Below are positions 474 through 58,286 of a DNA stretch of 64,000 bases, piece by piece; within the stretch, counting starts at the first letter, position 1; the number at the start of each line of letters is the position of its first letter. The position numbers were made by a program, and so were the translations under genes. This stretch comes from an uncultured Candidatus Saccharibacteria bacterium (GTDB lineage Bacteria; Patescibacteriota; WWE3; 2-01-FULL-39-13). Below the pieces are notes generated by a model, which searched no databases, had not been told where the DNA came from, and worked only from the letters and a program-made list of their open reading frames with translations. The DNA lies in the NCBI GenBank assembly GCA_964510925.1, contig CAZEDS010000004.1:500-64499 (forward strand), in the 5' to 3' direction.

Positions 474-1949
474 ATGTATTTATACAAAAAAGAAAAGTAT
501 AAAGTTTTAGAAGGTTCTAAAACCAACGCAGTATTATGTACTTGTTGGTTTGACCCATTTATTGTTGAGTCTAAATTTCCACAAATAAAAAAATATTTTT
601 CAATTACAGGAACGCTTTATAGCAAAGAAGGTGTTTCCATTTTGTTGCGAAATTTAGCGTTGAATCCACATATAAGATATTTATTTGTGTGGAGCAACAC
701 GCCACTTTCTAATACCCCTTTTGGTATTGCTGGTAGGGCTTTATTGGATGCTGTTTGGTCCGGGAACTTTGATCCGAATGATATTCACAAAGAAATTGAT
801 CGTGAAATTATAAAAAAAATTACTGACAATGTGGAGCTAATTCATTTTAAAAATGAATCTTTTGAACAATCTTTGTCGATGGCAGATTCTTTTGATAAAA
901 AAAATATCAATGAATATATGGACCCGATCTCCTTTGCTGATCCTGTTCGAGATGAATCAGTCCCATTTCCGTCTGAAAAAGTTGGCTGGCTTGTGCGTGA
1001 AAAATCAATCTATAGAGCTTGGTTAAACGTAGTCGAAAAGGTAATGAGATATGGATCAATAAAACTTACTGAATATGGAAATAACCAAAGAGAGCTTCAA
1101 AGTATTAATTGGATTATTGATAATGAAAGCTTTCCAAATATATATTTGCCTGATTTGGATTCAAAATTAATGCAAATTATTGGATTAAATGAAGAATCTT
1201 TGGCTAAATATAAAGAATCGCTTTTGGATTCCAAAATACCAAATGGTGTGGCATACACATATGGATCTAGGTTACGTTCTTATTTTGATATTGACCAAAT
1301 TGATATTCTTATTAATCAATTTAAAAAGGCGAATATTACTCGACGTGCTGTTGCAATCACCTATATTCCACAAATTGATACCACACATAGTTCTCCGCCA
1401 TGCTTAATTTTTGTACAACTTTTAATCGATGTTGATAATAAGTTGAATCTTTTTGCGTTATTTAGATCTCACGATATTTTTAAAGCGGGACTACCAAATG
1501 CATTTGGACTATTAAGTTTGCATGATTATATTTGTCAAAATTTACAGCTAAAGCGTGGAACACTTTCCATTCAAGATATTTCTTCGCACATATATGAAGA
1601 AGATTGGCAGAATGCAAATGACTTATTAAAATGTCAAAAATGGTCAGACATAAAGATTCAGTACAACGAAAATACAGAAACTGATCCACGGGGTATTGTT
1701 AGAATTTCATTAATGAATAAAAAAATTAATCTTGAGATTGTAAACTCAAACGGAGTTTTGGTTTTTGAAGACACCTCAGAATCTGCACGTGCTTTGATAA
1801 TGCGAATTTCAAAATTAGAATTACTTTCTATTCCAGCTCATCTTGCCGATATTTGTATTGAGCTTGTTAAAGCTGAAATTGCACTACAAATGGATCTTGA
1901 ATATGTGCAAGATCGTTTATTAAAATTCGGTACAGCCACTATAAAATAA
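474..1949 (+). CDS. thymidylate synthase / dNMP hydroxymethylase superfamily protein with a ~175-aa N-terminal extension
   Basis: The C-terminal ~315 aa align by eye to the ThyA core. [10 protein letters not shown] matches [19 protein letters not shown] matches the catalytic APCHAFFQF region, with the Cys retained and His replaced by Leu. [22 protein letters not shown] matches [34 protein letters not shown] matches GDTHLY. The N-terminal 175 aa have no counterpart in ThyA. Confidence 0.7.
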   Translation: [491 protein letters not shown]

Positions 1950-1952
1950 CTT

Positions 1953-3449
1953 TTAGCATTCACCACCATATATAGAAATATTCGGTTGGTTTAACATGCA
2001 TGAATTATTGTTGATCGTTTCGAGATTTTGTTTTTGCATCGATCGTATTCTCATGCATTCTAAACCTAAAAGATTGTTTATAAATGATTTATAAAATGCT
2101 GTAGTTGAACAAAATTTACTGACGTCTCCATTGTTTTCTGCTTTTCGTAGTCTAGGACATCCAAGTCCTCCGTGTAAGAATAGATAGTCAAAACTTTTGC
2201 TATCAAAATAGGTGAGCCCATTGAGATGTTGCATCGTATCCTTATATTTTTCGTTTACGATATCTAAAATATTTTCACCATTTTTTATGCGCTCAAAATT
2301 ATCTTTCATTTGGAATAAATCTTCATGGCATGGAGCTGCTCCTTCTGGGCCACAAGCCACATAATTTATTCCACTACCGCAAGTATATGGGGCAATGCCT
2401 GTTAAATTTATGTAATCAATAACACTTAGGCTTTGTATTGGAACTTTATTTTTTATCATCTGTTTAATTTTAGAGAAACCACGATTGAGTCCTTTCAGCA
2501 TAATAGAATACATTTTTTCAGATAATTCTTTGCTAATTCCACTTTGCGGTCTGAAAAACGCTATAAATACTGTGACCGGATGTTTGTTGCTCCAGTTTTT
2601 CCCGATAAATTTAGGCGAATTGATATCCCACATTGTTTCTATGAATTCTGGAAAATTATGTGCATTCGCAGGTGTTAAAACATAGTTAACGCTGTAATCG
2701 AGTCCGAAATTATCTATTGCTGAAATATTTTTGGTTATTACTTCATATGTTTCCATTTTATTTCTAGGCTTTCTTGAATTGTCTTGGACGCTTCCCGTTC
2801 CCCATAAACTTACGCTTAATGAAATATTATTTTGTTTAAAGAATTGTGCTTTTTTTTCGTCTAAAAAAACGCCATTAGTTAAGACTATTTGCTTAATATA
2901 TAAATTGGGATATTTATTTTTTAGCTCATTAATTTTATCTTGAGCTTGTAAAATTAAATCGTAAGACATTTTTAACAGAGGTTCGCCACCAGCCCATTTA
3001 ATTTTTATAGTTTTCATTTTTTTATCGTTTGCAGATTTTGCGAATGATTCTAGGTATGTTTCTAGTTTTGCTAAGTCTAAAGTTATTGCTTTGTTTAAGG
3101 GAATTCGGTCAATTGAAGTTGTGCATCCTGGGCATGAAAAATTGCATGCTTCTGTTAATTTTACGTACATTTGCGCATTATCTGGATTGTAATCAAGTTC
3201 GATTTTGACTTGCTCGTCATTTTTGTGGATGATTAAATTTTTTTCTAATATCGAAATATGTTTTTTGTTTATGCTTTCAAAATCATCATTTTGAATCGCT
3301 TCAATTGTTTTCCATTCAGCTCTATTTAAAAAATATATTTCGTTATTTATCGGATGGTATAAACCGATATTTTTTTTATTTCCTTTTCGATTAAAATAGG
3401 GCTCATTAATAATTTTTACGCCGTTGAATAGACGATATTCTTGAGTCAT
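1953..3449 (-). CDS. radical SAM enzyme with a C-terminal Cys-rich SPASM/twitch-like domain (putative peptide maturase)
   Basis: ACNFSCPGC is a CxxxCxxC radical SAM cluster motif near residue 100. The C-terminus has clustered Cys (YTCGSGINYVACGPEGAAPC ... GLGCPRL ... KFCST ... LECMR). The start ATG overlaps the stop of the upstream small peptide gene (ATGA). Confidence 0.75.
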   Translation of the reverse strand: MTQEYRLFNGVKIINEPYFNRKGNKKNIGLYHPINNEIYFLNRAEWKTIEAIQNDDFESINKKHISILEKNLIIHKNDEQVKIELDYNPDNAQMYVKLTEACNFSCPGCTTSIDRIPLNKAITLDLAKLETYLESFAKSANDKKMKTIKIKWAGGEPLLKMSYDLILQAQDKINELKNKYPNLYIKQIVLTNGVFLDEKKAQFFKQNNISLSVSLWGTGSVQDNSRKPRNKMETYEVITKNISAIDNFGLDYSVNYVLTPANAHNFPEFIETMWDINSPKFIGKNWSNKHPVTVFIAFFRPQSGISKELSEKMYSIMLKGLNRGFSKIKQMIKNKVPIQSLSVIDYINLTGIAPYTCGSGINYVACGPEGAAPCHEDLFQMKDNFERIKNGENILDIVNEKYKDTMQHLNGLTYFDSKSFDYLFLHGGLGCPRLRKAENNGDVSKFCSTTAFYKSFINNLLGLECMRIRSMQKQNLETINNNSCMLNQPNISIYGGEC

Positions 3450-3550
3450 ATTTTTGTTGTAAAAATATTAACGAATGAATTTTTTAGATCAGGGCAAGCA
3501 CAGTTGCATTGATCATTTTTTATGATTGTGTAAAGTTTTAGTTTTTTCAT
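3446..3550 (-). CDS. small peptide P1 (34 aa, MKKLKLYTIIKNDQCNCACPDLKNSFVNIFTTKI); putative RiPP precursor
   Basis: Manually translated; too short for the ORF track. Its TGA overlaps the rSAM ATG. It shares MKK-KL and the KNxQCxCACP core with paralog P2. Cys, Ala and Pro codons differ synonymously between the two copies. Confidence 0.5.
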   Translation of the reverse strand: MKKLKLYTIIKNDQCNCACPDLKNSFVNIFTTKI

Positions 3551-3609
3551 GTACCTACTATATGGTTTGGTACATGAAAAAACTTGAGTCTAACCTGAGT
3601 GTTCCTGAG

Positions 3610-3714
3610 TTATTTTTTAATTTTGGTAACTTTGATTTTTGAATCTTCCGTATTTGGACATGCGCAATCGCATTGATGATTTTTTACTGGTTTTGTTAAT
3701 TTAACTTTTTTCAT
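3610..3714 (-). CDS. small peptide P2 (34 aa, MKKVKLTKPVKNHQCDCACPNTEDSKIKVTKIKK); putative RiPP precursor
   Basis: It is the C-terminal 34 codons of the 67-aa track ORF at 3610..3813, starting at internal Met34. Paralogous to P1, with the same strand and orientation as the rSAM gene. Confidence 0.5.
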   Translation of the reverse strand: MKKVKLTKPVKNHQCDCACPNTEDSKIKVTKIKK

Positions 3715-3796
3715 ATGACACACATTATTGATATTTTGTTTTGCGGTTGCATTACTGTTTCTTATAACCTCTAGTATTCTTACTTTTTCCTTACTT

Positions 3797-3805
3797 TGGT
3801 ATAAT
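3797..3805 (+). promoter_or_regulatory. extended -10 element (TGgTATAAT) about 12 nt upstream of the ATG at 3818; near-leaderless transcript
   Basis: Sequence tttggtataat read directly. No Shine-Dalgarno between it and the ATG. Confidence 0.3.
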
Positions 3806-3817
3806 ATTGGCAAAATT

Positions 3818-4894
3818 ATGAAAAAGTCGGATGCCTCTAATATAAAGTATAAATTTAACTTAGGAATTGAAGCTGAAATGGTTCAATTTTATCGGGTAGC
3901 TCAAAATGAAAGCGCATTAAACTCAAATCGGGGTTTATTTTATGTTCTTCCATATCTTCCGAAAAGCTACGCCGATAGCCTCAAAACATGTTATTTCCCT
4001 GATCTTTCTTTACAGATAGATTTAAATGATTGGGTAAAGCTGAAAAAGAACAATTTTTATGCATACAATTCTTTGGCGTCGTACAAGAAGATCTTTTCTG
4101 GGTTGGCGGAGCATATGCTTCCAAAATCATATAAACAGAAATTAGTTGCTGACTTTGAATCCAAAAAACAGGGCTTTTTTGAAGATTTTAATAAAATTTT
4201 TGGTAAAACAGAGTTTCCGTTCTCAGAAATAGAGATCAACGTGATTTCGACTGGAACATTTGCTTCATACGATTATAAAGATAATAAAAAGCTTGAGCTA
4301 TATATTCGTGGAGATATGGCAGTCGATTTTATTTTTGAGCTTGTATTAACTGGATATCTGAGAAGAACTTATATCGACCATAAATTGAATAAAATTGATT
4401 ACGAAAATTTTGCGAACATTAATGAATGGATTGAGACAGAAAGTATTTCTGATTTTTTGATGACTGAAACAATTCTAAATAAATATTCAAAGAATTTTGT
4501 TCCGACTTTAAAAATTGTCACTGCAATTAATAATGAAGAATTGTTTAATGAATCACAAGCCTATCGTGAAAAACTGGGATTTGATACTTCTGTTAATAGT
4601 CGAATTTTAATTGATATGAATAAGAATCTTTGTTACAACAATAAGCCAATTGTTGGTTTGACTTTGCATGAGAAAAAAGTTCTTATGCTTCTTTCAGATA
4701 ATATCAATAGCACAATTTCTTATGAACGAATTGCAGAAGCACTTTGGGGACAAAATTATATTGAAAAATTCTCATTAGTTTATATAAATAAATTAATTTT
4801 TAGTGTCAGGCAAAAGCTAAAATTAAATCGATTACAAAATTTGAAAATCGATACGTTGCGAAGCTCTGGCTATATCTTGAGAAAAACAAATTAA
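3818..4894 (+). CDS. DNA-binding protein with C-terminal OmpR/PhoB-type winged helix (Trans_reg_C-like), no receiver domain; the N-terminal ~270 aa are unknown
   Basis: C-terminus LTLHEKKVLMLLSDN...ISYERIAEALWGQ...IDTLRSSGYILRK fits the OmpR wHTH pattern. The track ORF starts at 3728, but the first 30 codons overlap the P2 promoter region and are AT-rich hydrophobic filler. Internal Met31 at 3818 is preferred. Confidence 0.6.
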   Translation: MKKSDASNIKYKFNLGIEAEMVQFYRVAQNESALNSNRGLFYVLPYLPKSYADSLKTCYFPDLSLQIDLNDWVKLKKNNFYAYNSLASYKKIFSGLAEHMLPKSYKQKLVADFESKKQGFFEDFNKIFGKTEFPFSEIEINVISTGTFASYDYKDNKKLELYIRGDMAVDFIFELVLTGYLRRTYIDHKLNKIDYENFANINEWIETESISDFLMTETILNKYSKNFVPTLKIVTAINNEELFNESQAYREKLGFDTSVNSRILIDMNKNLCYNNKPIVGLTLHEKKVLMLLSDNINSTISYERIAEALWGQNYIEKFSLVYINKLIFSVRQKLKLNRLQNLKIDTLRSSGYILRKTN

Positions 4895-4904
4895 GCTAAA
4901 TACT

Positions 4905-6005
4905 ATGAAGATACATTCTGATTTAGATTATCCATTACTGCCAGAGACTTTGATTTCGATGGCTGAAAAAATTTCGAAATCTTCTGATGCCGGTCAATCA
5001 ATTTCATTTGTATTTGAAAAGGATATTGGGGGAGAACGTGCGTTACTAAGTTTTATTTATGATAATCGTGAATCAAAAGATTTTCAGAGATTTTTCAAAG
5101 ATAAGCTCGTATATAAATTTGATTTTTCGAATTTGCTTGAATATTCATTGGTAGGGTTTTTTTATGAGCTAAACAAAATTTTAAATCCTGGTGAAACATT
5201 GCCATATGAAAAATCTTCGATTGATTTTCTTCAATTGAAAATAAGAGACTCAATATCTAAAAATGTTGAAGCTGGGATACAAACAATTATTTTTATGCCT
5301 AAAGTTGATTCAATACCAAATTTTGATCAGTTGTATGGAAACCAATTAATGAATGTGTGGCGCTTAGATATTAACAAGCAAAAAATTGTATTCGTTTTCT
5401 CGATGGAAAAACATAAATATCAAAATTTTATTAATGAAAAAAGTGGTGATCTTAAATCTGTTTTGTTACAAAATCTTAATTTTATAGATAGATTTTCAGA
5501 AGAGGATATTAAACATAGTATTGAATATTGGCTTAAAAAGCTTGATTTTCAAATTGATCAAGAAGAATTTCGTTTAATTGTAAATTTGTCTGAAGGCTCA
5601 GCATATAAATCAAAATTACTTACTCAACATGTTGCTCAATTTCCTAAGCTTGGAAAAAATGAATTGGAACTTAAATTAAAAGAATTATTAAAGATAAGAT
5701 TTGAATTTTCAAATTCAAATGCAAAGCTCAAAATTATCGATGGGAATGTTTTTTTAGAAAACAAAAAATTCGAGGGAATAACTTCAACCGAATCTGATTT
5801 ATTGAAATTGTTTATTAATAACGAAGACACTGTGGTGAGTCGTGAAATGATTGCGGATTTATTATGGGGTAAAGAAAAATATGAGAAATATTCTGATTGG
5901 GCAATAGATAAACATATTTCAATTATAAGAAAAAAGTTAGAACAAAACTCGCTTGATGCGCATATCGAAACTATTAAAGGTTCTGGTTATAAGTTTTCTC
6001 AATAA
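4905..6005 (+). CDS. DNA-binding protein with C-terminal OmpR/PhoB-type winged helix; N-terminal domain unknown
   Basis: C-terminus SDLLKLFINNEDTVVSREMIADLLWG...HISIIRKKLE...IETIKGSGYKF matches the OmpR wHTH pattern. It lies 10 bp after the previous gene. Confidence 0.6.
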   Translation: MKIHSDLDYPLLPETLISMAEKISKSSDAGQSISFVFEKDIGGERALLSFIYDNRESKDFQRFFKDKLVYKFDFSNLLEYSLVGFFYELNKILNPGETLPYEKSSIDFLQLKIRDSISKNVEAGIQTIIFMPKVDSIPNFDQLYGNQLMNVWRLDINKQKIVFVFSMEKHKYQNFINEKSGDLKSVLLQNLNFIDRFSEEDIKHSIEYWLKKLDFQIDQEEFRLIVNLSEGSAYKSKLLTQHVAQFPKLGKNELELKLKELLKIRFEFSNSNAKLKIIDGNVFLENKKFEGITSTESDLLKLFINNEDTVVSREMIADLLWGKEKYEKYSDWAIDKHISIIRKKLEQNSLDAHIETIKGSGYKFSQ

Positions 6006-6007
6006 TC

Positions 6008-7474
6008 ATGAATGAACAAGATTCTAATGCTGAAACATTAGAGTATGATGAATATTTTGATTTAAATTTAATTCCTTCAGCTTTACTTAAAGATGCTGAT
6101 ATTGTTATGAAGCCATTTGAGTTTGGCGGCATAAATGAAACTTCACTTTTAACATATTCGCTATCGAAAGTGCTGGAGGCTAATGATAAAAAATTTTTAG
6201 AATTATCGGAAAATCCATATCATACAGTATCTTTAAACAGAGAAAGAGGTGGAATTGTATTAAGAATACAAACTCTTTTATCTGATTTACAGGAATCAAC
6301 TCAATGTGCATTTTTTATCGTAGGTGGTGCTGCCAGATCTTTGATGTCTCCAAATGATGAAAATCAAAGATTTAATGATTTGGATATTTGTATGATGCCA
6401 ACAAAATTTCAGAGTCCCGTTGATTTTATAAATTCAATTCGAAAATTTTTTTCAAGTCATCCAGCTATAAAATTGACGGCTCCTGAATATTCATATAATA
6501 ATTCAGTTTATCAAAATTCGTTTCCTCCTAATTTATCGACATTTCCAACATATTCAAAATATGAATATAATAAAAACCATACATTCGTAGGAGGCCTTCG
6601 TCCATCTGTTCGTAATGGCAATAATGATATAGAGATTAGACATGCAAGAGTTATACGTGTTTATCAAAAACATAATTCGCAAGCGATTAAGATTGGACTT
6701 TCAAAATATAAATATGATCGTAATGATAACTATATCTGTGTTGAGCTTGATTCTCCTAATTTTGAAGATGATTTTTGTGTTCCTCCAGTTTTTTTAGATC
6801 CTGAAAATCCATATTCAGTTGTGTTAATGCCAAATGGTCAGATTCTATCTTTAGAGATAAAACGTGATAAACCAATTAATACAGGTAATTTTAGTGCGAA
6901 GGATCAGTTTACATTTGCTACGAGAATTTTTTCAAAGCAAATCCCATTGATGAAGGTTCGTGAATCAGATCTTGGTACTTCATTTCCTATTGCAAGGTTA
7001 GAGAATGTAGAAATGGTTTTTAAAAATCAATTTCATGAGTTATTCGATCCTCAAAATGCTAAGGATTTAAATTTATGGAATTTTAATATTGCCATGAAGA
7101 TGCAAGAATATTTTGCTAAAAGTTTTAATGCTAATCCTGAAATTTTTAAATGTATGCTAACCCCTGAATTTTTTAACTATATGTGGAATGTTTTTCCAGG
7201 CTTAACAATGAAAATTGGACCTCATGTTGTAAAAGATTTTAATATGCAGTTCCCGAGATCAAGTACGACAAAACTTAGTGATGTTTATAAGTGCTTGTAT
7301 TATTTGTGGTACACAAAAGGGAAAACTTCTCCGATGTCAAAATTCATTAATTTAATTCCCGGTGTAGCTGATGAAATTGAAAAACTACAAGCTCGGAACA
7401 CAGGTCTGTGGAGCTTTGGATTTAATCATTTGGCATATGTTGAGAATAAGCGTAGACAAGCATCTAAAACATGA
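6008..7474 (+). CDS. hypothetical protein with a Pol-beta-like nucleotidyltransferase motif (GGAARSLM...NDLDI)
   Basis: FFIVGGAARSLMSPNDENQRFNDLDICM resembles the GG-x-R-D-x-LL ... D-x-D head motif of the CCA-adding/poly(A) polymerase family, with an insertion. The rest is unrecognisable. It begins 2 bp after the previous gene. Confidence 0.35.
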   Translation: MNEQDSNAETLEYDEYFDLNLIPSALLKDADIVMKPFEFGGINETSLLTYSLSKVLEANDKKFLELSENPYHTVSLNRERGGIVLRIQTLLSDLQESTQCAFFIVGGAARSLMSPNDENQRFNDLDICMMPTKFQSPVDFINSIRKFFSSHPAIKLTAPEYSYNNSVYQNSFPPNLSTFPTYSKYEYNKNHTFVGGLRPSVRNGNNDIEIRHARVIRVYQKHNSQAIKIGLSKYKYDRNDNYICVELDSPNFEDDFCVPPVFLDPENPYSVVLMPNGQILSLEIKRDKPINTGNFSAKDQFTFATRIFSKQIPLMKVRESDLGTSFPIARLENVEMVFKNQFHELFDPQNAKDLNLWNFNIAMKMQEYFAKSFNANPEIFKCMLTPEFFNYMWNVFPGLTMKIGPHVVKDFNMQFPRSSTTKLSDVYKCLYYLWYTKGKTSPMSKFINLIPGVADEIEKLQARNTGLWSFGFNHLAYVENKRRQASKT

Positions 7475-7486
7475 TTTTTTAGAAAA

Positions 7487-7495
7487 TGGTATACT
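7487..7495 (+). promoter_or_regulatory. extended -10 element (TGgTATACT) giving a ~230-nt leader for the RRM protein gene
   Basis: Sequence aatggtatact read directly. A long untranslated gap precedes the GTG start at 7730. Confidence 0.25.
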
Positions 7496-7729
7496 TTGCT
7501 CAGAACTCTGACAGTGTTTGAAGTATCGAAGTTCCATTTTTTTGCTTTACGTTGTAAGTGCAGGTAATTTGGTCAACTCCGTTAAGTTTTAAGAAATTAA
7601 AATTTATTGGATCCTTCATATTTCCCATCTAAAGAGTGAGTGTGAATCCGTCTTAAAAGGCGGTTTCAAGCTGTTTTAGACTAAAAACTAGAATAGCGAA
7701 GTTCAATTATTTAGGAGGTGAATTTTTAA

Positions 7730-8047
7730 GTGACCAAATTATACGTTGGAAATCTTCCTTACAAGATTACTTCAGAAGACCTAAAGCAAATGTTCTCCGC
7801 ATATGGAGAAGTAACTGCTACAGTCATTATGGACAAAATGTCAGGTAGATCAAAAGGCTTCGGCTTTGTTGAACTAGACGATGCTGTTTCAGAACAGGTT
7901 ATATCTGAGATGAATGGCAAAGACATGGAAGGCAGAGCTCTCGTTGTTAATGTCGCCAGACCTATGGAAGACAGACCAAAGAGACCTTTCGATAATAACA
8001 GAGGCGGCGGCCGATCAGGCGGCAGCTTCAGCAGAGATCGTTATTAA
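7730..8047 (+). CDS. RRM-domain RNA-binding protein with Gly/Arg-rich tail
   Basis: LYVGNLPY (RNP2) and KGFGFVEL (RNP1). GTG start with AGGAGG 11 nt upstream. The C-terminus is RGGGRSGGSFSRDRY. Confidence 0.85.
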   Translation: MTKLYVGNLPYKITSEDLKQMFSAYGEVTATVIMDKMSGRSKGFGFVELDDAVSEQVISEMNGKDMEGRALVVNVARPMEDRPKRPFDNNRGGGRSGGSFSRDRY

Positions 8048-8353: not shown

Positions 8354-10168
8354 ATGGACTTGAGAAATATCGCAATCATCGCACACGTCGACCACGGCAA
8401 AACCACATTAGTAGACGGACTTTTAAAACAATCAAAAACTTTCAGAGAAAATGAAGCATTCATGTCTCAAGAATTGATAATGGATTCCAATGATCAGGAA
8501 CGAGAAAGAGGCATCACAATTTTGGCTAAAAACACAGCAGTAATCTACAAAGACGTTAAAATCAACATTATTGATACCCCGGGTCACTCGGATTTTAGTG
8601 GAGAAGTCGAGCGTACATTAAACATGGCTGATGGTGCATTGTTGCTTGTAGACGCTCAAGAAGGTCCAATGCCACAAACAAAATTTGTGTTGAAAAAGGC
8701 TTTAGAGCTTAAGTTAAAACTCATTGTGATCGTTAATAAGATCGATAAAAAAGATGCTAGAGTCAAAGAAACTTTAGATAAAATTTATAATCTTTTTTTG
8801 GAACTTGCTACCGATGACAGTCAGTTAGAATTTCCAATTTTGTATGCAATCGGTCGAGATGCAAAATCATGGGAAAAAATGCCAAATGATTTTTCAGAAT
8901 CCGCAGATTTAACACCAATTTTTGATGCGATTTTAAAGTATATTCCTTCTCCTGCAGTAGAAGAAAATCAACCTTTCCAAATGTTGGTTTCTTCACTTGA
9001 TTGGGATAATTACAAAGGTAAATATGCAATTGGTAGAATTCGACGTGGTGCTATAAAGTCAGGTGATCAGCTTAAATTGATGAATCTCGAAGGAAAAAAT
9101 GAGCAAGTAACTGTTGATAAGATTTTTGTTAACCAAGGTTTAAAGAGGGTAGAGTCAACTATTGGCGAATCTGGCGATATTATTGCGATTACGGGTATTA
9201 AAAATGCAGAGATCGGTGATACATTGTCGGCTTCAGGTCATGCTGATGACATCTTTTCATCAATCAAGATTGGTGAACCTACTTTGAGCATTTCGATTGG
9301 ACCTAATACTTCTCCTTTAGTTGGAAAAGAAGGCTCTATATTAACTGGTCGACAAATTTTGGATCGTATTCAACAAGAGCTTCATGTAAATGTTGCTATG
9401 CGTTTTAGAATTGACGAAAGTGGACAATACATTTTATCTGGTAGAGGTGAGCTTCATATTTGTGTGTTTTTAGAAACTTTAAGTAGAGAAGGTTACGAGC
9501 TGGAAATTGGAAAGCCAAAAGTCATCACTAAAGTAATCGATGGTCATGAAGTCGAACCAATTGAAGAGTATTTGGTCGATGTTCCTGAAGAGCATGTTGG
9601 TGCAGTTAAAAGCGAATTTTCACAACGTGCAGGAGTTTTGATGATGCAAGAAGAAGCCGGTGTTGGAACTTCTCGATTGATTTTTGAAATTCCTACTAGA
9701 TATGTTTTAGGTTTGCGAAGCTTACTTCTAACTTTGACAAAAGGAACTGCTATCTCAAGTTCAACCTTTTTGCGTTATGACCGTGTAAATCAAACGATCA
9801 AAAAAACTAGAAAAGGTGTTCTTATCGCTACTGAATCAGGAAAAGCCACTATTTATGGCTTACGTAATGCACAAGAGCGTGGTGGTACCTTTATCGAGCC
9901 TCAAACACTAGTTTATGGCGGAATGATCGTCGGTATCAACCCTCGTGAAGGTGACCTCGAAATTAATGTTTGTAAGCCTAAACCAGTTTCAAACGTTCGC
10001 TCAAAAGGTGAAGATACAATCTTTTTAAGTGCTCCAATAAAAATGAGCCTTGAACAATTTTTTGGCTTTTTAGAAGAAGACGAACTTTTGGAAATAACAC
10101 CTCAAAATTTACGTTTGCGCAAAAAAATTCTTGATATGAATTTGCGATACAAGAGCCAACGAAAATAA
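8354..10168 (+). CDS. typA: translational GTPase TypA/BipA
   Basis: N-terminus LRNIAIIAHVDHGKTTLVD with the G-domain motifs DTPGHSDF and NKID. 604 aa. Confidence 0.9.
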   Translation: MDLRNIAIIAHVDHGKTTLVDGLLKQSKTFRENEAFMSQELIMDSNDQERERGITILAKNTAVIYKDVKINIIDTPGHSDFSGEVERTLNMADGALLLVDAQEGPMPQTKFVLKKALELKLKLIVIVNKIDKKDARVKETLDKIYNLFLELATDDSQLEFPILYAIGRDAKSWEKMPNDFSESADLTPIFDAILKYIPSPAVEENQPFQMLVSSLDWDNYKGKYAIGRIRRGAIKSGDQLKLMNLEGKNEQVTVDKIFVNQGLKRVESTIGESGDIIAITGIKNAEIGDTLSASGHADDIFSSIKIGEPTLSISIGPNTSPLVGKEGSILTGRQILDRIQQELHVNVAMRFRIDESGQYILSGRGELHICVFLETLSREGYELEIGKPKVITKVIDGHEVEPIEEYLVDVPEEHVGAVKSEFSQRAGVLMMQEEAGVGTSRLIFEIPTRYVLGLRSLLLTLTKGTAISSSTFLRYDRVNQTIKKTRKGVLIATESGKATIYGLRNAQERGGTFIEPQTLVYGGMIVGINPREGDLEINVCKPKPVSNVRSKGEDTIFLSAPIKMSLEQFFGFLEEDELLEITPQNLRLRKKILDMNLRYKSQRK

Positions 10169-39139: not shown

Positions 39140-39673
39140 GTGTACTCAAATAAAATCTCAACTGCTATAATTTGCAATATCAATCCCTCAAGAAGCAAAG
39201 CATTTCAAAAGCTCAAGAAATTGATGCGAAAATGCGCATTTAATAAGCTTTTTGTCTTGGATTCTGATATAAACTGCCCAAAAAAAATACAAGTTATAGT
39301 TAGGCGCTCTAAAAGGGTTAATCGCATGAAATCTAAGAATAATTATCATAAACACAAGGAATACGCTCGAGAAATAATCGTGAAAACAGTCGATAATATT
39401 GCTCAAAAACATGGGTTTTCATACAACCGCATTGCTATTAAAAATCAAAAAACGAGACTTGGTAGCTGTTCAACAAAGAAAAACCTTAATTTTAATTGGC
39501 AGATAATCAAGTTCCCAAAGCCTATTATGGAATATGTCATAAAGCATGAGTTAGCTCACTTAAATGAGCCGAACCACAGCGATAGATATTGGTTCGAAGT
39601 ACAAAAAATTGATCGTGCATATAAAAGACACCATGCGTGGATAAAAGAAAATGCATACAAATATATAGATTAA
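39140..39673 (+). CDS. DUF45/YgjP-like (SprT-like) metal-dependent hydrolase
   Basis: GSCSTKKNLNFNWQII ... HELAHLNEPNHSDRYW (HExxH). The true start may be an internal Met. Confidence 0.55.
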   Translation: MYSNKISTAIICNINPSRSKAFQKLKKLMRKCAFNKLFVLDSDINCPKKIQVIVRRSKRVNRMKSKNNYHKHKEYAREIIVKTVDNIAQKHGFSYNRIAIKNQKTRLGSCSTKKNLNFNWQIIKFPKPIMEYVIKHELAHLNEPNHSDRYWFEVQKIDRAYKRHHAWIKENAYKYID

Positions 39674-56856: not shown

Positions 56857-56954
56857 TATACCGGTTTTCTTTGATATAATGTTGTAAAGCGTTGAAAAAG
56901 TCTAGCAGCTTTGGAGCTTAATTCTGTTGATACCTCGAGCGTCCCAGTTTTGGG

Positions 56955-56990
56955 AAAGGGGAGTGGCACCGCGGATCTTTTGATTCGTCT
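56955..56990 (+). promoter_or_regulatory. T-box-like motif (GGGGAGUGGCACCGCGG) plus short hairpin in the serS leader
   Basis: Partial match to the T-box consensus AGGGUGGNACCGCGG, with an AG insertion. The UGGC bulge would pair with a G discriminator, as in tRNA-Ser. Stem I was not confidently identified. Confidence 0.25.
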
Positions 56991-57017
56991 CCTCTAGTTC
57001 ATATTTTTCATTTATAT

Positions 57018-58286
57018 ATGTTGGATATTAAGTTTATCCGTAACAACGTTCAGTTAGTTAGAGATGCTATAAAAAATAAGCAGCTCTTAAAAACTATAGA
57101 TTTAGATCGATTGCTGGAGCTCGATCAAAAGTTATCAACTTTAACCCTTGAGTTGAATGAATTGAGGTCAAAACGAAATCAACTTGATGATCAAATCAAA
57201 ACGACTAAAGATATTGAAGAAAAAAAGAAAATTATTGCTGAAGCTTCATTGTTAAAGCCTACGATTCAAGAAAAAGAGTCAAAAATAGCTGAATTAAAGC
57301 CTGAATTTGATGCGTTAATGCTTTGGGTTCCAAATCCACCAGCTGCAGATGTACCAATTGGTGAAGATGAATCAGGAAACAAAGTTTTGTATTCTAAAGG
57401 TAACAAACGAGAATACGACTTTGAACCAAAAGATCATATGGATTTAGCTGAGAATTTAGATATTCTTGATACAAAAAGAGGTTCAAAAATCGCAGGATTC
57501 AGAGGCTATTTTATAAAAGGCAAAGGTATGATTTTGGAACAAGCACTTTTGCGATATGCCTTGGATTTTATGGTTGAAAAGGGTTTTACACCAATGAATG
57601 TTCCAATAATGGTCGACAAAAGATGGTTAACAGGGACTGGGTATTTTCCATGGGGACAAGAAGATCATTATTATACTCAAGATGACGAAGCACTTGTCGG
57701 TACTGCAGAAGTTTCACTAACTGCATATTATGCGGATGAAACTTTAAATGAGTCTGATCTTCCAATTAAATTAACTGGTCAGTCATTATGCTTTAGACGA
57801 GAAGTTGGAAGCCACGGAAAAGATACAAAAGGTGTTTTTAGGGTTCACACTTTTAATAAAGTTGAACAAGTTGTTTTATTACCAGCCGATGAGGATTTAA
57901 CACGTGAATGGCACGATAAAATGCGTGATTATGCAGAAGAAATTTTGCAAGGCCTAGGTTTGCATTATCAAGTTTTGTTGATGTGCACAGGCGATATGGG
58001 CGCTGGGCAAAGAAGAAAATATGACATTGAAACTTGGTTTCCAGCTCAAAAAAAGTTTAGAGAAACTCATTCTGATTCATATTTTAATGATTTTCAAGCT
58101 CGAAGGCTAAACATGAAATATAAAACTAAAGATGGTGAAACCAAATATGTGTACACGTTGAATAACACGGTAGCCGCTACACCAAGGCTTTTGGCTGCAG
58201 TCATTGAAAACTATCAACAAAAAGACGGTACAATTTTAGTCCCAGAAGTTTTGCGAAAGTATACTGGTTTTGACGTTATTGATTGA
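57018..58286 (+). CDS. serS: seryl-tRNA synthetase
   Basis: N-terminal coiled-coil, then the class II core FRREVGSHGKDTKGVFRVHTFNKVE ... GAGQRRKYDIETWFP. Confidence 0.9.
   Translation: MLDIKFIRNNVQLVRDAIKNKQLLKTIDLDRLLELDQKLSTLTLELNELRSKRNQLDDQIKTTKDIEEKKKIIAEASLLKPTIQEKESKIAELKPEFDALMLWVPNPPAADVPIGEDESGNKVLYSKGNKREYDFEPKDHMDLAENLDILDTKRGSKIAGFRGYFIKGKGMILEQALLRYALDFMVEKGFTPMNVPIMVDKRWLTGTGYFPWGQEDHYYTQDDEALVGTAEVSLTAYYADETLNESDLPIKLTGQSLCFRREVGSHGKDTKGVFRVHTFNKVEQVVLLPADEDLTREWHDKMRDYAEEILQGLGLHYQVLLMCTGDMGAGQRRKYDIETWFPAQKKFRETHSDSYFNDFQARRLNMKYKTKDGETKYVYTLNNTVAATPRLLAAVIENYQQKDGTILVPEVLRKYTGFDVID

What the first reader, a model, noticed from the sequence alone, without database searches (positions are those of the whole stretch)
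3728..7474. Operon of two proteins with C-terminal OmpR-type winged helix and no receiver domain, plus a nucleotidyltransferase-motif protein
Two consecutive proteins of 358 and 366 aa end in an OmpR/PhoB-type wHTH, but their N-terminal domains of about 270 aa are unrelated to receiver domains and to each other. The domain order, unknown sensor first and wHTH last, mirrors the classic response regulator and is uncommon. The third gene starts 2 bp later and carries a GG-x-R-x-LM ... D-L-D-I Pol-beta-like nucleotidyltransferase motif in an otherwise novel 488-aa protein. The operon is divergently transcribed from the peptide/rSAM cassette, with a near-leaderless extended -10 promoter at 3797-3805. 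These genes could be its regulators, or a separate signalling or defence module.
Basis: partly seen in the sequence, partly recalled or inferred. Interest (0 to 1): 0.55.

Follow-up and report, generated by a model that had tools for sequence, protein, structure and literature searches.

The report
Orphan regulator pair plus putative nucleotidyltransferase
A candidate-phyla-radiation bacterium carries a three-gene operon, seen in no other lineage searched, that encodes two DNA-binding regulators lacking the usual phosphorylation domain and a probable nucleotide-transferring enzyme, next to a small modified-peptide gene cluster; the genes are real, but their function can only be inferred.

Summary
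Genes at 3818-4894 (358 aa), 4905-6005 (366 aa) and 6008-7474 (488 aa) are real. They recur in at least six other contigs of the same population, with dN/dS of 0.10-0.22.

Both smaller proteins end in a significant OmpR/PhoB-type winged helix (Pfam Trans_reg_C, E 4.5e-8 and 2.9e-17). Their N-terminal 265-280 residues match no Pfam, NCBIfam, PADLOC or PDB family at a meaningful score, match no receiver domain, and do not match each other.

The third protein has no relatives among 1.84 billion representative proteins. Its GG-x16-DLD motif has weak, consistent support as a Pol-beta-type nucleotidyltransferase core (PHROG E 0.005; PDB 5UVD aligned over the motif). No fold could be predicted (pLDDT 32 and 39).

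TGGTATAAT at 3797-3805 is a credible short-leader promoter, but that layout is normal in this genome. Two CTTACTTT copies 11 bp apart abut it and are a candidate operator.

No relatives of the trio or of the peptide/radical-SAM cassette were found elsewhere, so neighbourhood conservation could not be tested.

The most likely reading (about 0.4) is autoregulated regulators sited beside the cluster plus an accessory enzyme. An AbiE/MenAT-like toxin-antitoxin reading remains open. Interest is modest.

The parts
3779..3797 (+). Tandem direct repeat CTTACTTT-ttc-CTTACTTT with an 11-bp period, abutting the -10 element. Candidate operator for an OmpR-type winged-helix dimer.
   Evidence: These are the only two copies of the 8-mer in 64 kb on either strand. 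However, exact 8-mer repeats at 10/11-bp spacing arise about 5 times by chance in 64 kb. Only the location, in a 103-bp control region, is notable (p about 0.01). Invariant in 5 strains, which is uninformative at 1.3% divergence.
3797..3805 (+). Extended -10 promoter element TGGTATAAT, 12 nt upstream of the P1 ATG (short-leader or leaderless mRNA).
   Evidence: Sequence. There are only 3 TGNTATAAT sites in the window. This one and the one at 56872 lie in intergenic DNA facing a gene; the one at 39163 lies just downstream of the GTG that opens ORF 39140-39673, so it would be intergenic only if that gene starts further downstream. An exact TATAAT 4-16 nt before a start codon occurs at 6 of 51 genes against 0.38 expected.
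3818..4894 (+). P1, 358 aa. Orphan N-terminal domain (about residues 1-260) plus a C-terminal OmpR/PhoB-type winged helix (residues 279-354, nt 4652-4879).
   Evidence: Trans_reg_C E 4.5e-8. PDB SaeR/ArlR E 6e-4. The N-terminal domain has no hits. dN/dS 0.10-0.15.
4905..6005 (+). P2, 366 aa. Orphan N-terminal domain (about residues 1-270) plus a C-terminal OmpR/PhoB-type winged helix (residues 292-364, nt 5778-5996).
   Evidence: Trans_reg_C E 2.9e-17. PhoB DNA-binding domain E 1.1e-8. The N-terminal domain has no hits. dN/dS 0.11-0.12.
6008..7474 (+). P3, 488 aa. Orphan protein with a putative Pol-beta-type nucleotidyltransferase core (residues ~85-210, nt 6260-6637; G106 G107 ... R121 ... 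D124 L D126) and a C-terminal half that the low-confidence model renders as helices.
   Evidence: No relatives in 1.84e9 representatives apart from a strain fragment. phrog_1614 'nucleotidyltransferase' E 0.042 for the full protein and 0.0053 for the segment. 5UVD motif alignment. Residues 118-225 are invariant between strains. dN/dS 0.2.
3610..3714 (-). Context: precursor peptide 1 (34 aa, MKKVKLTKPVKNHQCDCACPNTEDSKIKVTKIKK), divergent from P1.
3446..3550 (-). Context: precursor peptide 2 (34 aa, MKKLKLYTIIKNDQCNCACPDLKNSFVNIFTTKI). Its stop overlaps the radical-SAM ATG.
1953..3449 (-). Context: radical SAM peptide maturase, likely SPASM-type (498 aa).
   Evidence: Radical_SAM E 2.2e-9. Best NCBIfam matches are peptide-maturase families (DynA, CcpM, PapB), all far below their cut-offs.

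Best explanation
This is a lineage-specific operon of a Patescibacteria (CPR, WWE3-like) bacterium.

P1 and P2 are cytoplasmic one-component transcription factors. Each has a different orphan N-terminal domain that presumably acts as the input (ligand or partner binding). Each is fused to an OmpR/PhoB-type winged helix of the response-regulator kind, which acts as the output. No phosphorylation is involved.

The operon is transcribed from the extended -10 promoter at 3797-3805 as a short-leader mRNA. P3 is translationally coupled to P2.

One of the two regulators probably binds as a head-to-tail dimer to the 11-bp-phased CTTACTTT repeat at 3779-3797. That repeat overlaps the -35/spacer of the operon's own promoter and lies about 60-80 bp upstream of the divergent peptide-1 start. 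Binding there could autoregulate the trio and control the two-peptide/radical-SAM cassette, as regulators sited inside biosynthetic clusters do.

P3 is most likely a Pol-beta-superfamily nucleotidyltransferase of an undescribed family, serving as an accessory enzyme. Its substrate is unknown; self-protection, peptide modification or a nucleotide signal are all possible.

Shown: the gene structures, purifying selection, the wHTH identity, the absence of a receiver, the operon coupling, and the presence of the promoter element and the repeat. Inferred: DNA binding at the repeat, the link to the peptide cassette, the input role of the N-terminal domains, and NTase activity.
For: The wHTH domains are significant and closest to response-regulator-type effectors such as RpaB, VanR and PhoB.

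No receiver was found, and no histidine kinase lies within +/-10 kb.

The trio shares a 103-bp divergent control region with the peptide genes. Non-coding DNA in 3551-3609 and 3715-3817 carries 1 substitution in 162 bp across 5 strains. About 8 would be expected from the dS of 0.04-0.07 in the neighbouring genes.

The 8-mer direct repeat is unique in the window, phased at 11 bp and positioned at the promoter. No other tandem site exists in 64 kb, which fits a local regulator.

The gene spacing (10 nt and 2 nt, or an ATGA overlap) indicates one operon.

OmpR-domain regulators inside biosynthetic clusters are typically pathway activators (PMC10663231).

For the P3 NTase core: motif statistics; the best PHROG family is an NTase, E 0.005; the PDB NTase-like protein 5UVD aligns across the same motif with the same loop length; and the motif and its downstream core are invariant between strains.
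Against: There is no comparative support. Neither the trio nor the cassette was found outside one population, so co-occurrence carries no information.

The direct repeat is not significant genome-wide: 4 such loci are observed against about 5 expected.

The repeat abuts the -10 element. That favours repression of the trio rather than activation, and its effect on the peptide promoter is pure inference.

The two recognition helices differ (DKHISIIRKK versus NKLIFSVRQK), so at most one of the proteins fits an identical-half-site repeat.

P3 matches no curated NTase family (Pfam, NCBIfam, PADLOC). Structure prediction failed for both proteins tried.
Confidence: 0.4

Rival explanations
1. An AbiE/MenAT-like toxin-antitoxin or abortive-infection module. 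P3 would be a DUF1814-like nucleotidyltransferase toxin, for example one that extends tRNA 3' ends. One or both upstream DNA-binding proteins would be autoregulating antitoxins. The peptide cassette would merely be a neighbour.
For: The P3 motif GG-x16-DLD has an arginine (R121) three residues before the first aspartate. That matches the unusual long spacer and the 'arginine within motif II' described as specific to AbiEii/DUF1814 (PMC3985639).

The gene order (DNA-binding protein, then a tightly coupled NTase) and the candidate operator at the operon's own promoter mirror abiEi-abiEii.

The genes are lineage-specific, and the strain variants are mosaic: P3 residues 2-100 have dS 0.46 against 0.069 for the rest.
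Against: PADLOC models give no hit at E<=10, and Pfam AbiEii gives none. MenT structures in the PDB are not matched at E<=10.

Motif IV (+DxxD) is absent, and motif III is only loosely matched by KDQFTFATR.

P3 is 488 aa, against about 300 for AbiEii or MenT. There are two 'antitoxin' candidates of about 360 aa, each with an OmpR-type wHTH at the C-terminus rather than the AbiEi N-terminal wHTH.

The region shows no compositional or mobile-element signature.
Confidence: 0.15
2. P1 and P2 are transcription factors with targets unrelated to the adjacent peptide cassette, and P3 is simply the enzyme they control together with themselves. The divergent arrangement is coincidental in a compact genome.
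For: CPR genomes are gene-dense with short intergenic regions, so divergent neighbours are common. No transporter, protease or immunity gene links the two units. The repeat sits on the trio's promoter, not the peptide promoter.
Against: No second copy of the candidate operator occurs anywhere in 64 kb. The shared control region is more conserved than synonymous sites in its neighbours.
Confidence: 0.25
3. The NTase motif in P3 is fortuitous. P3 would be a non-enzymatic or otherwise unrelated orphan protein. The rest of the description (two wHTH regulators) would still stand.
For: No curated NTase model matches. The supporting hits are sub-significant to marginal (E 0.94, 0.042 and 0.005). In the local ORF set, 2 of the 5 other pattern matches were false positives, for example in BipA. 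No structure is available.
Against: Two independent libraries both return an NTase over the same region. The PHROG match spans about 120 residues, not just the motif. The stricter pattern is unique among 456,342 residues. The motif and residues 118-225 are invariant, whereas the flanking N-terminus varies.
Confidence: 0.3

Closest known systems
OmpR/PhoB-family response regulators (e.g. PhoB, RpaB, VanR, ArlR, SaeR)
   Same: The C-terminal winged helix-turn-helix of the same Pfam family, at the C-terminal end of the protein. The recognition-helix signature D-x-H-I-x-x-(I/L)-R-K-K-L is kept in P2. These regulators bind direct repeats spaced about 11 bp apart at promoters.
   Different: There is no receiver domain, no phospho-acceptor and no kinase nearby. 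The N-terminal region is about 265-280 aa (a receiver is about 120) and has no detectable relatives.
SARP and other cluster-situated OmpR-domain regulators of biosynthetic gene clusters
   Same: A receiver-less OmpR-type DNA-binding protein encoded beside a natural-product cluster. A candidate operator of direct repeats with 11-bp periodicity overlaps the -35 region.
   Different: The domain order is reversed (in SARPs the wHTH is N-terminal). There is no BTAD domain. The organism is a CPR bacterium and the cluster is a minimal two-peptide/radical-SAM cassette.
AbiE / MenAT nucleotidyltransferase toxin-antitoxin systems (DUF1814)
   Same: A DNA-binding protein is followed by a translationally coupled NTase-motif protein. 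The motif is hG[GS]-long spacer-DhD with an arginine inside motif II.
   Different: No HMM-level membership. Motif IV is absent. The protein is 488 aa. There are two upstream partners with an OmpR-type C-terminal wHTH, not the AbiEi architecture.
Class II CCA-adding enzymes / poly(A) polymerases (PolyA_pol head domain)
   Same: A GG-x-x-R ... D-x-D signature preceded by a hydrophobic strand, and a C-terminal half that the low-confidence model renders as helices. P3 also has an RxxRxxR stretch (RHARVIR, 211-217).
   Different: No Pfam or PDB match. The GG-to-DxD spacer is longer. The motif sits after an N-terminal extension of about 100 aa.

Membership tests
OmpR/PhoB-family response regulator | C-terminal Trans_reg_C winged helix-turn-helix | tested here: met
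   PF00486 E 4.5e-8 (P1) and 2.9e-17 (P2), above the gathering score. PDB PhoB, ArlR and SaeR matches.
OmpR/PhoB-family response regulator | N-terminal receiver domain (PF00072) with a phospho-acceptor aspartate | tested here: not met
   No Response_reg hit at E<=1 on the full proteins or at E<=10 on the N-terminal domains. NCBIfam response-regulator models align only from their position ~120 onward.
OmpR/PhoB-family response regulator | Cognate histidine kinase encoded nearby | tested here: not met
   No HisKA or HATPase_c among the called genes within +/-10 kb. The rest of the contig was not examined.
SARP (Streptomyces antibiotic regulatory protein) | N-terminal OmpR-type wHTH followed by a BTAD domain | tested here: not met
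   The wHTH is C-terminal, and there is no PF03704 hit.
SARP (Streptomyces antibiotic regulatory protein) | Binds direct repeats with 11-bp periodicity overlapping the -35 of target promoters | tested here: inconclusive
   CTTACTTT x2 at an 11-bp period abuts the -10. Such repeats are not rarer than chance genome-wide, and binding was not tested.
AbiEii / MenT (DUF1814) nucleotidyltransferase toxins | Match to the AbiEii/DUF1814 family models | tested here: not met
   No Pfam, PADLOC or NCBIfam hit even at E<=10. No MenT chain among the PDB hits.
AbiEii / MenT (DUF1814) nucleotidyltransferase toxins | Motifs I/II: hG[GS]-x15-DhD with an arginine in motif II | tested here: met
   V105-G106-G107-x16-D124-L-D126 with R121, compared with the definition in PMC3985639. 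This is a motif-level comparison only.
AbiEii / MenT (DUF1814) nucleotidyltransferase toxins | C-terminal motifs III (KLxAaxxR) and IV (+DxxD) | tested here: not met
   No +DxxD anywhere in P3. Only a loose K298-DQFTFAT-R306.
AbiEii / MenT (DUF1814) nucleotidyltransferase toxins | Growth inhibition neutralised by the upstream partner | not testable with these tools
   Requires expression experiments.
Pol-beta nucleotidyltransferase superfamily (fold level) | Alpha-beta-alpha-beta-alpha-beta core carrying G[GS] and three carboxylates | tested here: inconclusive
   Sequence motif present. phrog_1614 E 0.005. 5UVD E 0.94. The AlphaFold2 single-sequence model had pLDDT 32, and the Foldseek search on it was meaningless.
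Class II CCA-adding enzyme / poly(A) polymerase | PolyA_pol head-domain model match | tested here: not met
   No PF01743 hit at E<=10. No CCA or PAP chain among the PDB hits at E<=10.
CD-NTase (CBASS) | Match to the CD-NTase models of PADLOC | tested here: not met
   No PADLOC hit at E<=10.
AAA+/STAND NTPase (considered for the P2 N-terminal domain) | Walker A GxxxxGK[ST] and a family model match | tested here: not met
   The sequence has D-I-G-G-E-R in the corresponding place. No AAA-type Pfam or NCBIfam hit. The resemblance in strand/helix order is by eye and comes from a model with pLDDT 39.

The most novel reading that the evidence does not exclude
The three genes form a self-contained signalling or abortive module of a kind not yet described. 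An orphan Pol-beta-type nucleotidyltransferase would make, or attach, a nucleotide. That nucleotide would be sensed by, or would act on, the novel N-terminal domains of two OmpR-type DNA-binding proteins. This would couple nucleotide chemistry directly to transcription of a modified-peptide cassette, or to growth arrest, in a CPR bacterium.
Probability: 0.1. Interest if true: 0.65.

Novelty: new variant of a known kind. Interest (0 to 1): 0.33.

Why it matters
CPR bacteria have very few recognisable regulators, and almost nothing is known about how they control secondary-metabolite-like peptide clusters. If P1 and P2 do regulate the adjacent two-peptide/radical-SAM cassette, they would show that the OmpR winged helix was re-used as the output of phosphorylation-independent sensors with new input domains. 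If P3 is an AbiE/MenT-like enzyme, the nucleotidyltransferase toxin theme would extend to a very divergent form in episymbiotic bacteria. As it stands, the locus is a well-defined set of population-restricted orphan genes, not a demonstrated new system.

Tried and rejected
Searches for homologues all returned only the query population.
- Word-indexed search of 5.8e9 clusters for P3 and for the P1 and P2 N-terminal domains.
- Full HMMER search of 1.84e9 representatives for P3: one 82%-identical fragment only.
- tblastn against phages and plasmids.
- IMG/VR scans.
- GTDB genome scan with the radical-SAM protein: nothing.
- BipA neighbourhoods of 80 relatives: no trio, radical-SAM or ThyA homologue, and little synteny.
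- Degenerate DNA pattern for the peptide core KN-x-QC-x-CACP in JGI metagenomes: 6 hits, all chance, with no ORF context.

Structure prediction failed. Single-sequence AlphaFold2 gave pLDDT 32.2 for P3 and 38.8 for P2. Foldseek searches with those models gave TM-scores of 0.1-0.2 and are disregarded.

Ideas rejected:
- Defence-system identity by PADLOC.
- Paralogues elsewhere in the window.
- Relatedness of the two N-terminal domains to each other or to P3.
- A recent horizontally acquired island: GC, GC3 and amino-acid composition lie within about 1.6 sd of the window mean.
- Positive selection on the variable P3 N-terminus: dN/dS is 0.2 in both parts and dS differs 7-fold, so this is recombination.
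- A known RNA family in the flanking intergenic regions.
- The TTG at 3728 as the start of P1. It would add a hydrophobic, TM-like N-terminus, but that is what translating T-rich promoter DNA gives, and the promoter would then lie inside the gene.

Full report
**Source and setting**

The window is part of a 175,925-bp contig from a wastewater metagenome (ENA ERZ965348). GC content is about 32%. The BipA protein encoded at 8354-10168 is at best 66-68% identical to that of WWE3, 'Saccharibacteria' and other Patescibacteria MAGs. The organism is therefore a CPR bacterium with no close sequenced species representative.

**Check of the observation**

The three ORFs exist as described: P1 at 3818-4894 (358 aa from the ATG), P2 at 4905-6005 (366 aa) and P3 at 6008-7474 (488 aa). 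The coordinate 3728 is an upstream TTG in the same frame. Independent gene calls on three assemblies use the ATG at 3818. The gaps are 10 nt between P1 and P2 and 2 nt between P2 and P3. In a strain variant, P2 and P3 overlap by ATGA.

Both P1 and P2 carry a significant Trans_reg_C domain at the extreme C-terminus: E 4.5e-8 for residues 279-354 and E 2.9e-17 for residues 292-364. Their best NCBIfam and PDB matches are the effector domains of response regulators, namely RpaB, VanR, PhoB, ArlR and SaeR.

Upstream of the winged helix nothing is recognisable.
- No receiver or other Pfam, NCBIfam or PADLOC family appears, even at E<=10.
- No meaningful PDB match appears.
- The two proteins resemble each other only in the winged helix, at 37% identity. 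hhalign of the N-terminal domains gives probability 0.2%.

**Are the genes real?**

Cluster look-ups and exact-protein look-ups recovered six further contigs from the same population. They come from aquatic metagenomes of PRJNA377521 and two other ENA assemblies. They are 92-98.7% identical in DNA and colinear with the window, with at most a few single gaps.

| Gene | dN/dS against strain variants |
|---|---|
| P1 | 0.10-0.15 |
| P2 | 0.11-0.12 |
| P3 | 0.20-0.22 |
| P2/P3 off-frames | 0.6-3 |
| Radical-SAM gene | 0.01 |

All three are therefore expressed protein-coding genes under purifying selection, though less constrained than the maturase.

Divergence in P3 is mosaic. Residues 2-100 have dS 0.46 and residues 101-380 have dS 0.069, with equal dN/dS. 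This points to recombination rather than diversifying selection.

**P3 and the nucleotidyltransferase motif**

P3 has no relatives in the word-indexed collection. A full HMMER scan of 1.84 billion representatives found only an 82%-identical strain fragment. It matches no Pfam, NCBIfam or PADLOC model.

The motif is F-F-I-V-G106-G107-A-A-R-S-L-M-(x)-R121-F-N-D124-L-D126-I. Support for a Pol-beta-type core is weak but consistent.
- The only PHROG family matched is phrog_1614, 'nucleotidyltransferase'. It scores E 0.042 for the full protein and E 0.0053 for residues 80-221, over about 120 residues.
- A general hhhG[GS]x9-18Dh[DE]h pattern occurs six times in 1,410 ORFs. Three of the other five are evident minimal NTases, and a stricter version is unique to P3.
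- The motif residues and all of residues 118-225 are invariant between strains. By contrast, 21 of the 28 substitutions fall in residues 1-117.

The long spacer (16 residues) and the arginine just before the first aspartate resemble the features reported as distinctive of AbiEii/DUF1814 (PMC3985639). DUF1814 motif IV (+DxxD) is absent, however, and motif III is matched only loosely.

AlphaFold2 without an alignment failed (pLDDT 32.2), so the fold is unverified. I put the probability of a genuine NTase core at about 0.7, with the family unassigned.

**N-terminal domains of P1 and P2**

These are orphan at the sensitivity available: word-indexed search, Pfam, NCBIfam, PHROGs, PADLOC, PDB, and plasmid and phage tblastn.

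By eye, P2 residues 30-265 have the order of strands and helices of a degenerate P-loop/lid module. Examples are SISFVFEKDIGGER, IQTIIFMPKVD, KIVFVFS, 'FIDRFSEEDIKHSIEYW' and 'LSEGSAYKSKLL'. The Walker A lysine is missing, however, and no model matches. The AlphaFold2 model (pLDDT 38.8) and its Foldseek search are uninformative. This remains a lead, not a result.

**Control region**

The sequence TGGTATAAT at 3797-3805 lies 12 nt before the P1 ATG. Only three TGNTATAAT sites occur in 64 kb. This one and the one at 56872 lie in intergenic DNA facing a gene. The one at 39163 lies just after the GTG that opens ORF 39140-39673, and follows a terminator-like hairpin.

This layout is the norm for the genome. 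Six of 51 genes have an exact TATAAT 4-16 nt before the start codon, against 0.38 expected. Only 9 of 51 have a Shine-Dalgarno-like sequence. The promoter call is therefore credible but not a special feature of this operon.

Two exact copies of CTTACTTT, 11 bp apart (3779-3797), abut the -10 element. They are the only copies of that 8-mer in the window. Such phased 8-mer repeats arise about five times by chance in 64 kb, so only their position in a 103-bp control region is notable (p about 0.01). No further sites exist.

The non-coding DNA between the divergent units is more conserved than synonymous sites in the flanking genes: 1 substitution in 162 bp against about 8 expected. This fits functional regulatory DNA but does not single out the repeat.

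**Neighbourhood**

Divergent from P1 lies a cassette on the minus strand that contains two paralogous 34-aa precursor peptides, not one. They are at 3610-3714 and 3446-3550 and share MKKxKL...KN[HD]QC[DN]CACP. A radical-SAM enzyme whose closest NCBIfam matches are peptide maturases follows them.

The cassette has no relatives in GTDB genomes or in JGI metagenomes by the searches possible here. The 80 BipA neighbourhoods of related CPR genomes contain none of these genes.

The region is not compositionally anomalous. No mobile-element genes flank it.

**Interpretation**

The best-supported model, at about 0.4, has four parts.
- P1 and P2 are phosphorylation-independent one-component regulators that re-use a response-regulator-type winged helix as their output.
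- One of them binds the phased repeat at its own promoter.
- The pair controls the shared divergent region and thereby the peptide cassette. This parallels cluster-situated OmpR-domain regulators, which are mostly pathway activators (PMC10663231).
- P3 is a co-expressed accessory nucleotidyltransferase.

The main rivals are as follows.
- An AbiE/MenAT-like toxin-antitoxin module (about 0.15). The motif subtype and the gene order support it. All family models, the protein sizes and the missing motif IV count against it.
- Regulators with no link to the cassette (about 0.25).
- Separately, the NTase motif may be fortuitous (about 0.3).

**Novelty and interest**

The winged helices are ordinary members of a very large family. 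What is unusual is their fusion to long, unrelated orphan N-terminal domains, their tandem occurrence, and their coupling to an orphan NTase-motif protein beside a peptide-modification cassette in a CPR genome. Orphan genes are common in CPR bacteria, and no mechanism is demonstrated. I therefore rate this a new variant of a known kind, with modest interest (0.33).

Noticed in passing
window 3446-3550 (-): A second 34-aa precursor peptide gene (MKKLKLYTIIKNDQCNCACPDLKNSFVNIFTTKI), paralogous to the one at 3610-3714. Its stop codon overlaps the radical-SAM ATG, so the cassette encodes two substrates.
   Followed up: partly
window 3540-3584: A perfect 16-bp inverted repeat with a 13-nt loop lies between the two peptide genes. 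As minus-strand RNA it folds at -22.8 kcal/mol (z = -5.4), and its 3' arm contains the start codon of peptide 2. It may act as an attenuator, a processing site or a translation-occlusion hairpin.
   Followed up: partly
window 3446-3817: The peptide genes plus the surrounding non-coding DNA show 1 substitution in 372 bp across five strains, while neighbouring genes have dS 0.04-0.07.
   Followed up: yes
window 7475-7729: The 255-bp region upstream of the RRM-protein gene (GTG at 7730, preceded by AGGAGG) folds much better than shuffled sequence (z = -4.1). It matches no Rfam family. It may be a structured leader or a small RNA.
   Followed up: partly
window 474-1949 (+): A 491-aa fusion protein with an unassigned N-terminal ~170 aa, an archaeal-type thymidylate synthase core (TIGR03283, E 1.6e-55) and a C-terminal pterin-binding DUF4346 domain. 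It is convergent with the radical-SAM gene.
   Followed up: no
whole window: The genome rarely uses Shine-Dalgarno sequences (9 of 51 genes). A consensus TATAAT often lies 4-16 nt before the start codon (6 of 51 genes against 0.38 expected), which implies widespread leaderless or short-leader mRNAs.
   Followed up: yes
window 56872-57017: TGATATAAT is followed by a GC-richer leader of about 140 nt before the gene at 57018. It looks like a structured 5' leader and was not analysed.
   Followed up: no
L083 versus window 6011-7147: Divergence between strains is mosaic within P3 (dS 0.46 in codons 2-100, 0.069 in codons 101-380) and within P2 (0.165 versus 0.021). This indicates recombination among co-existing strains.
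   Followed up: partly
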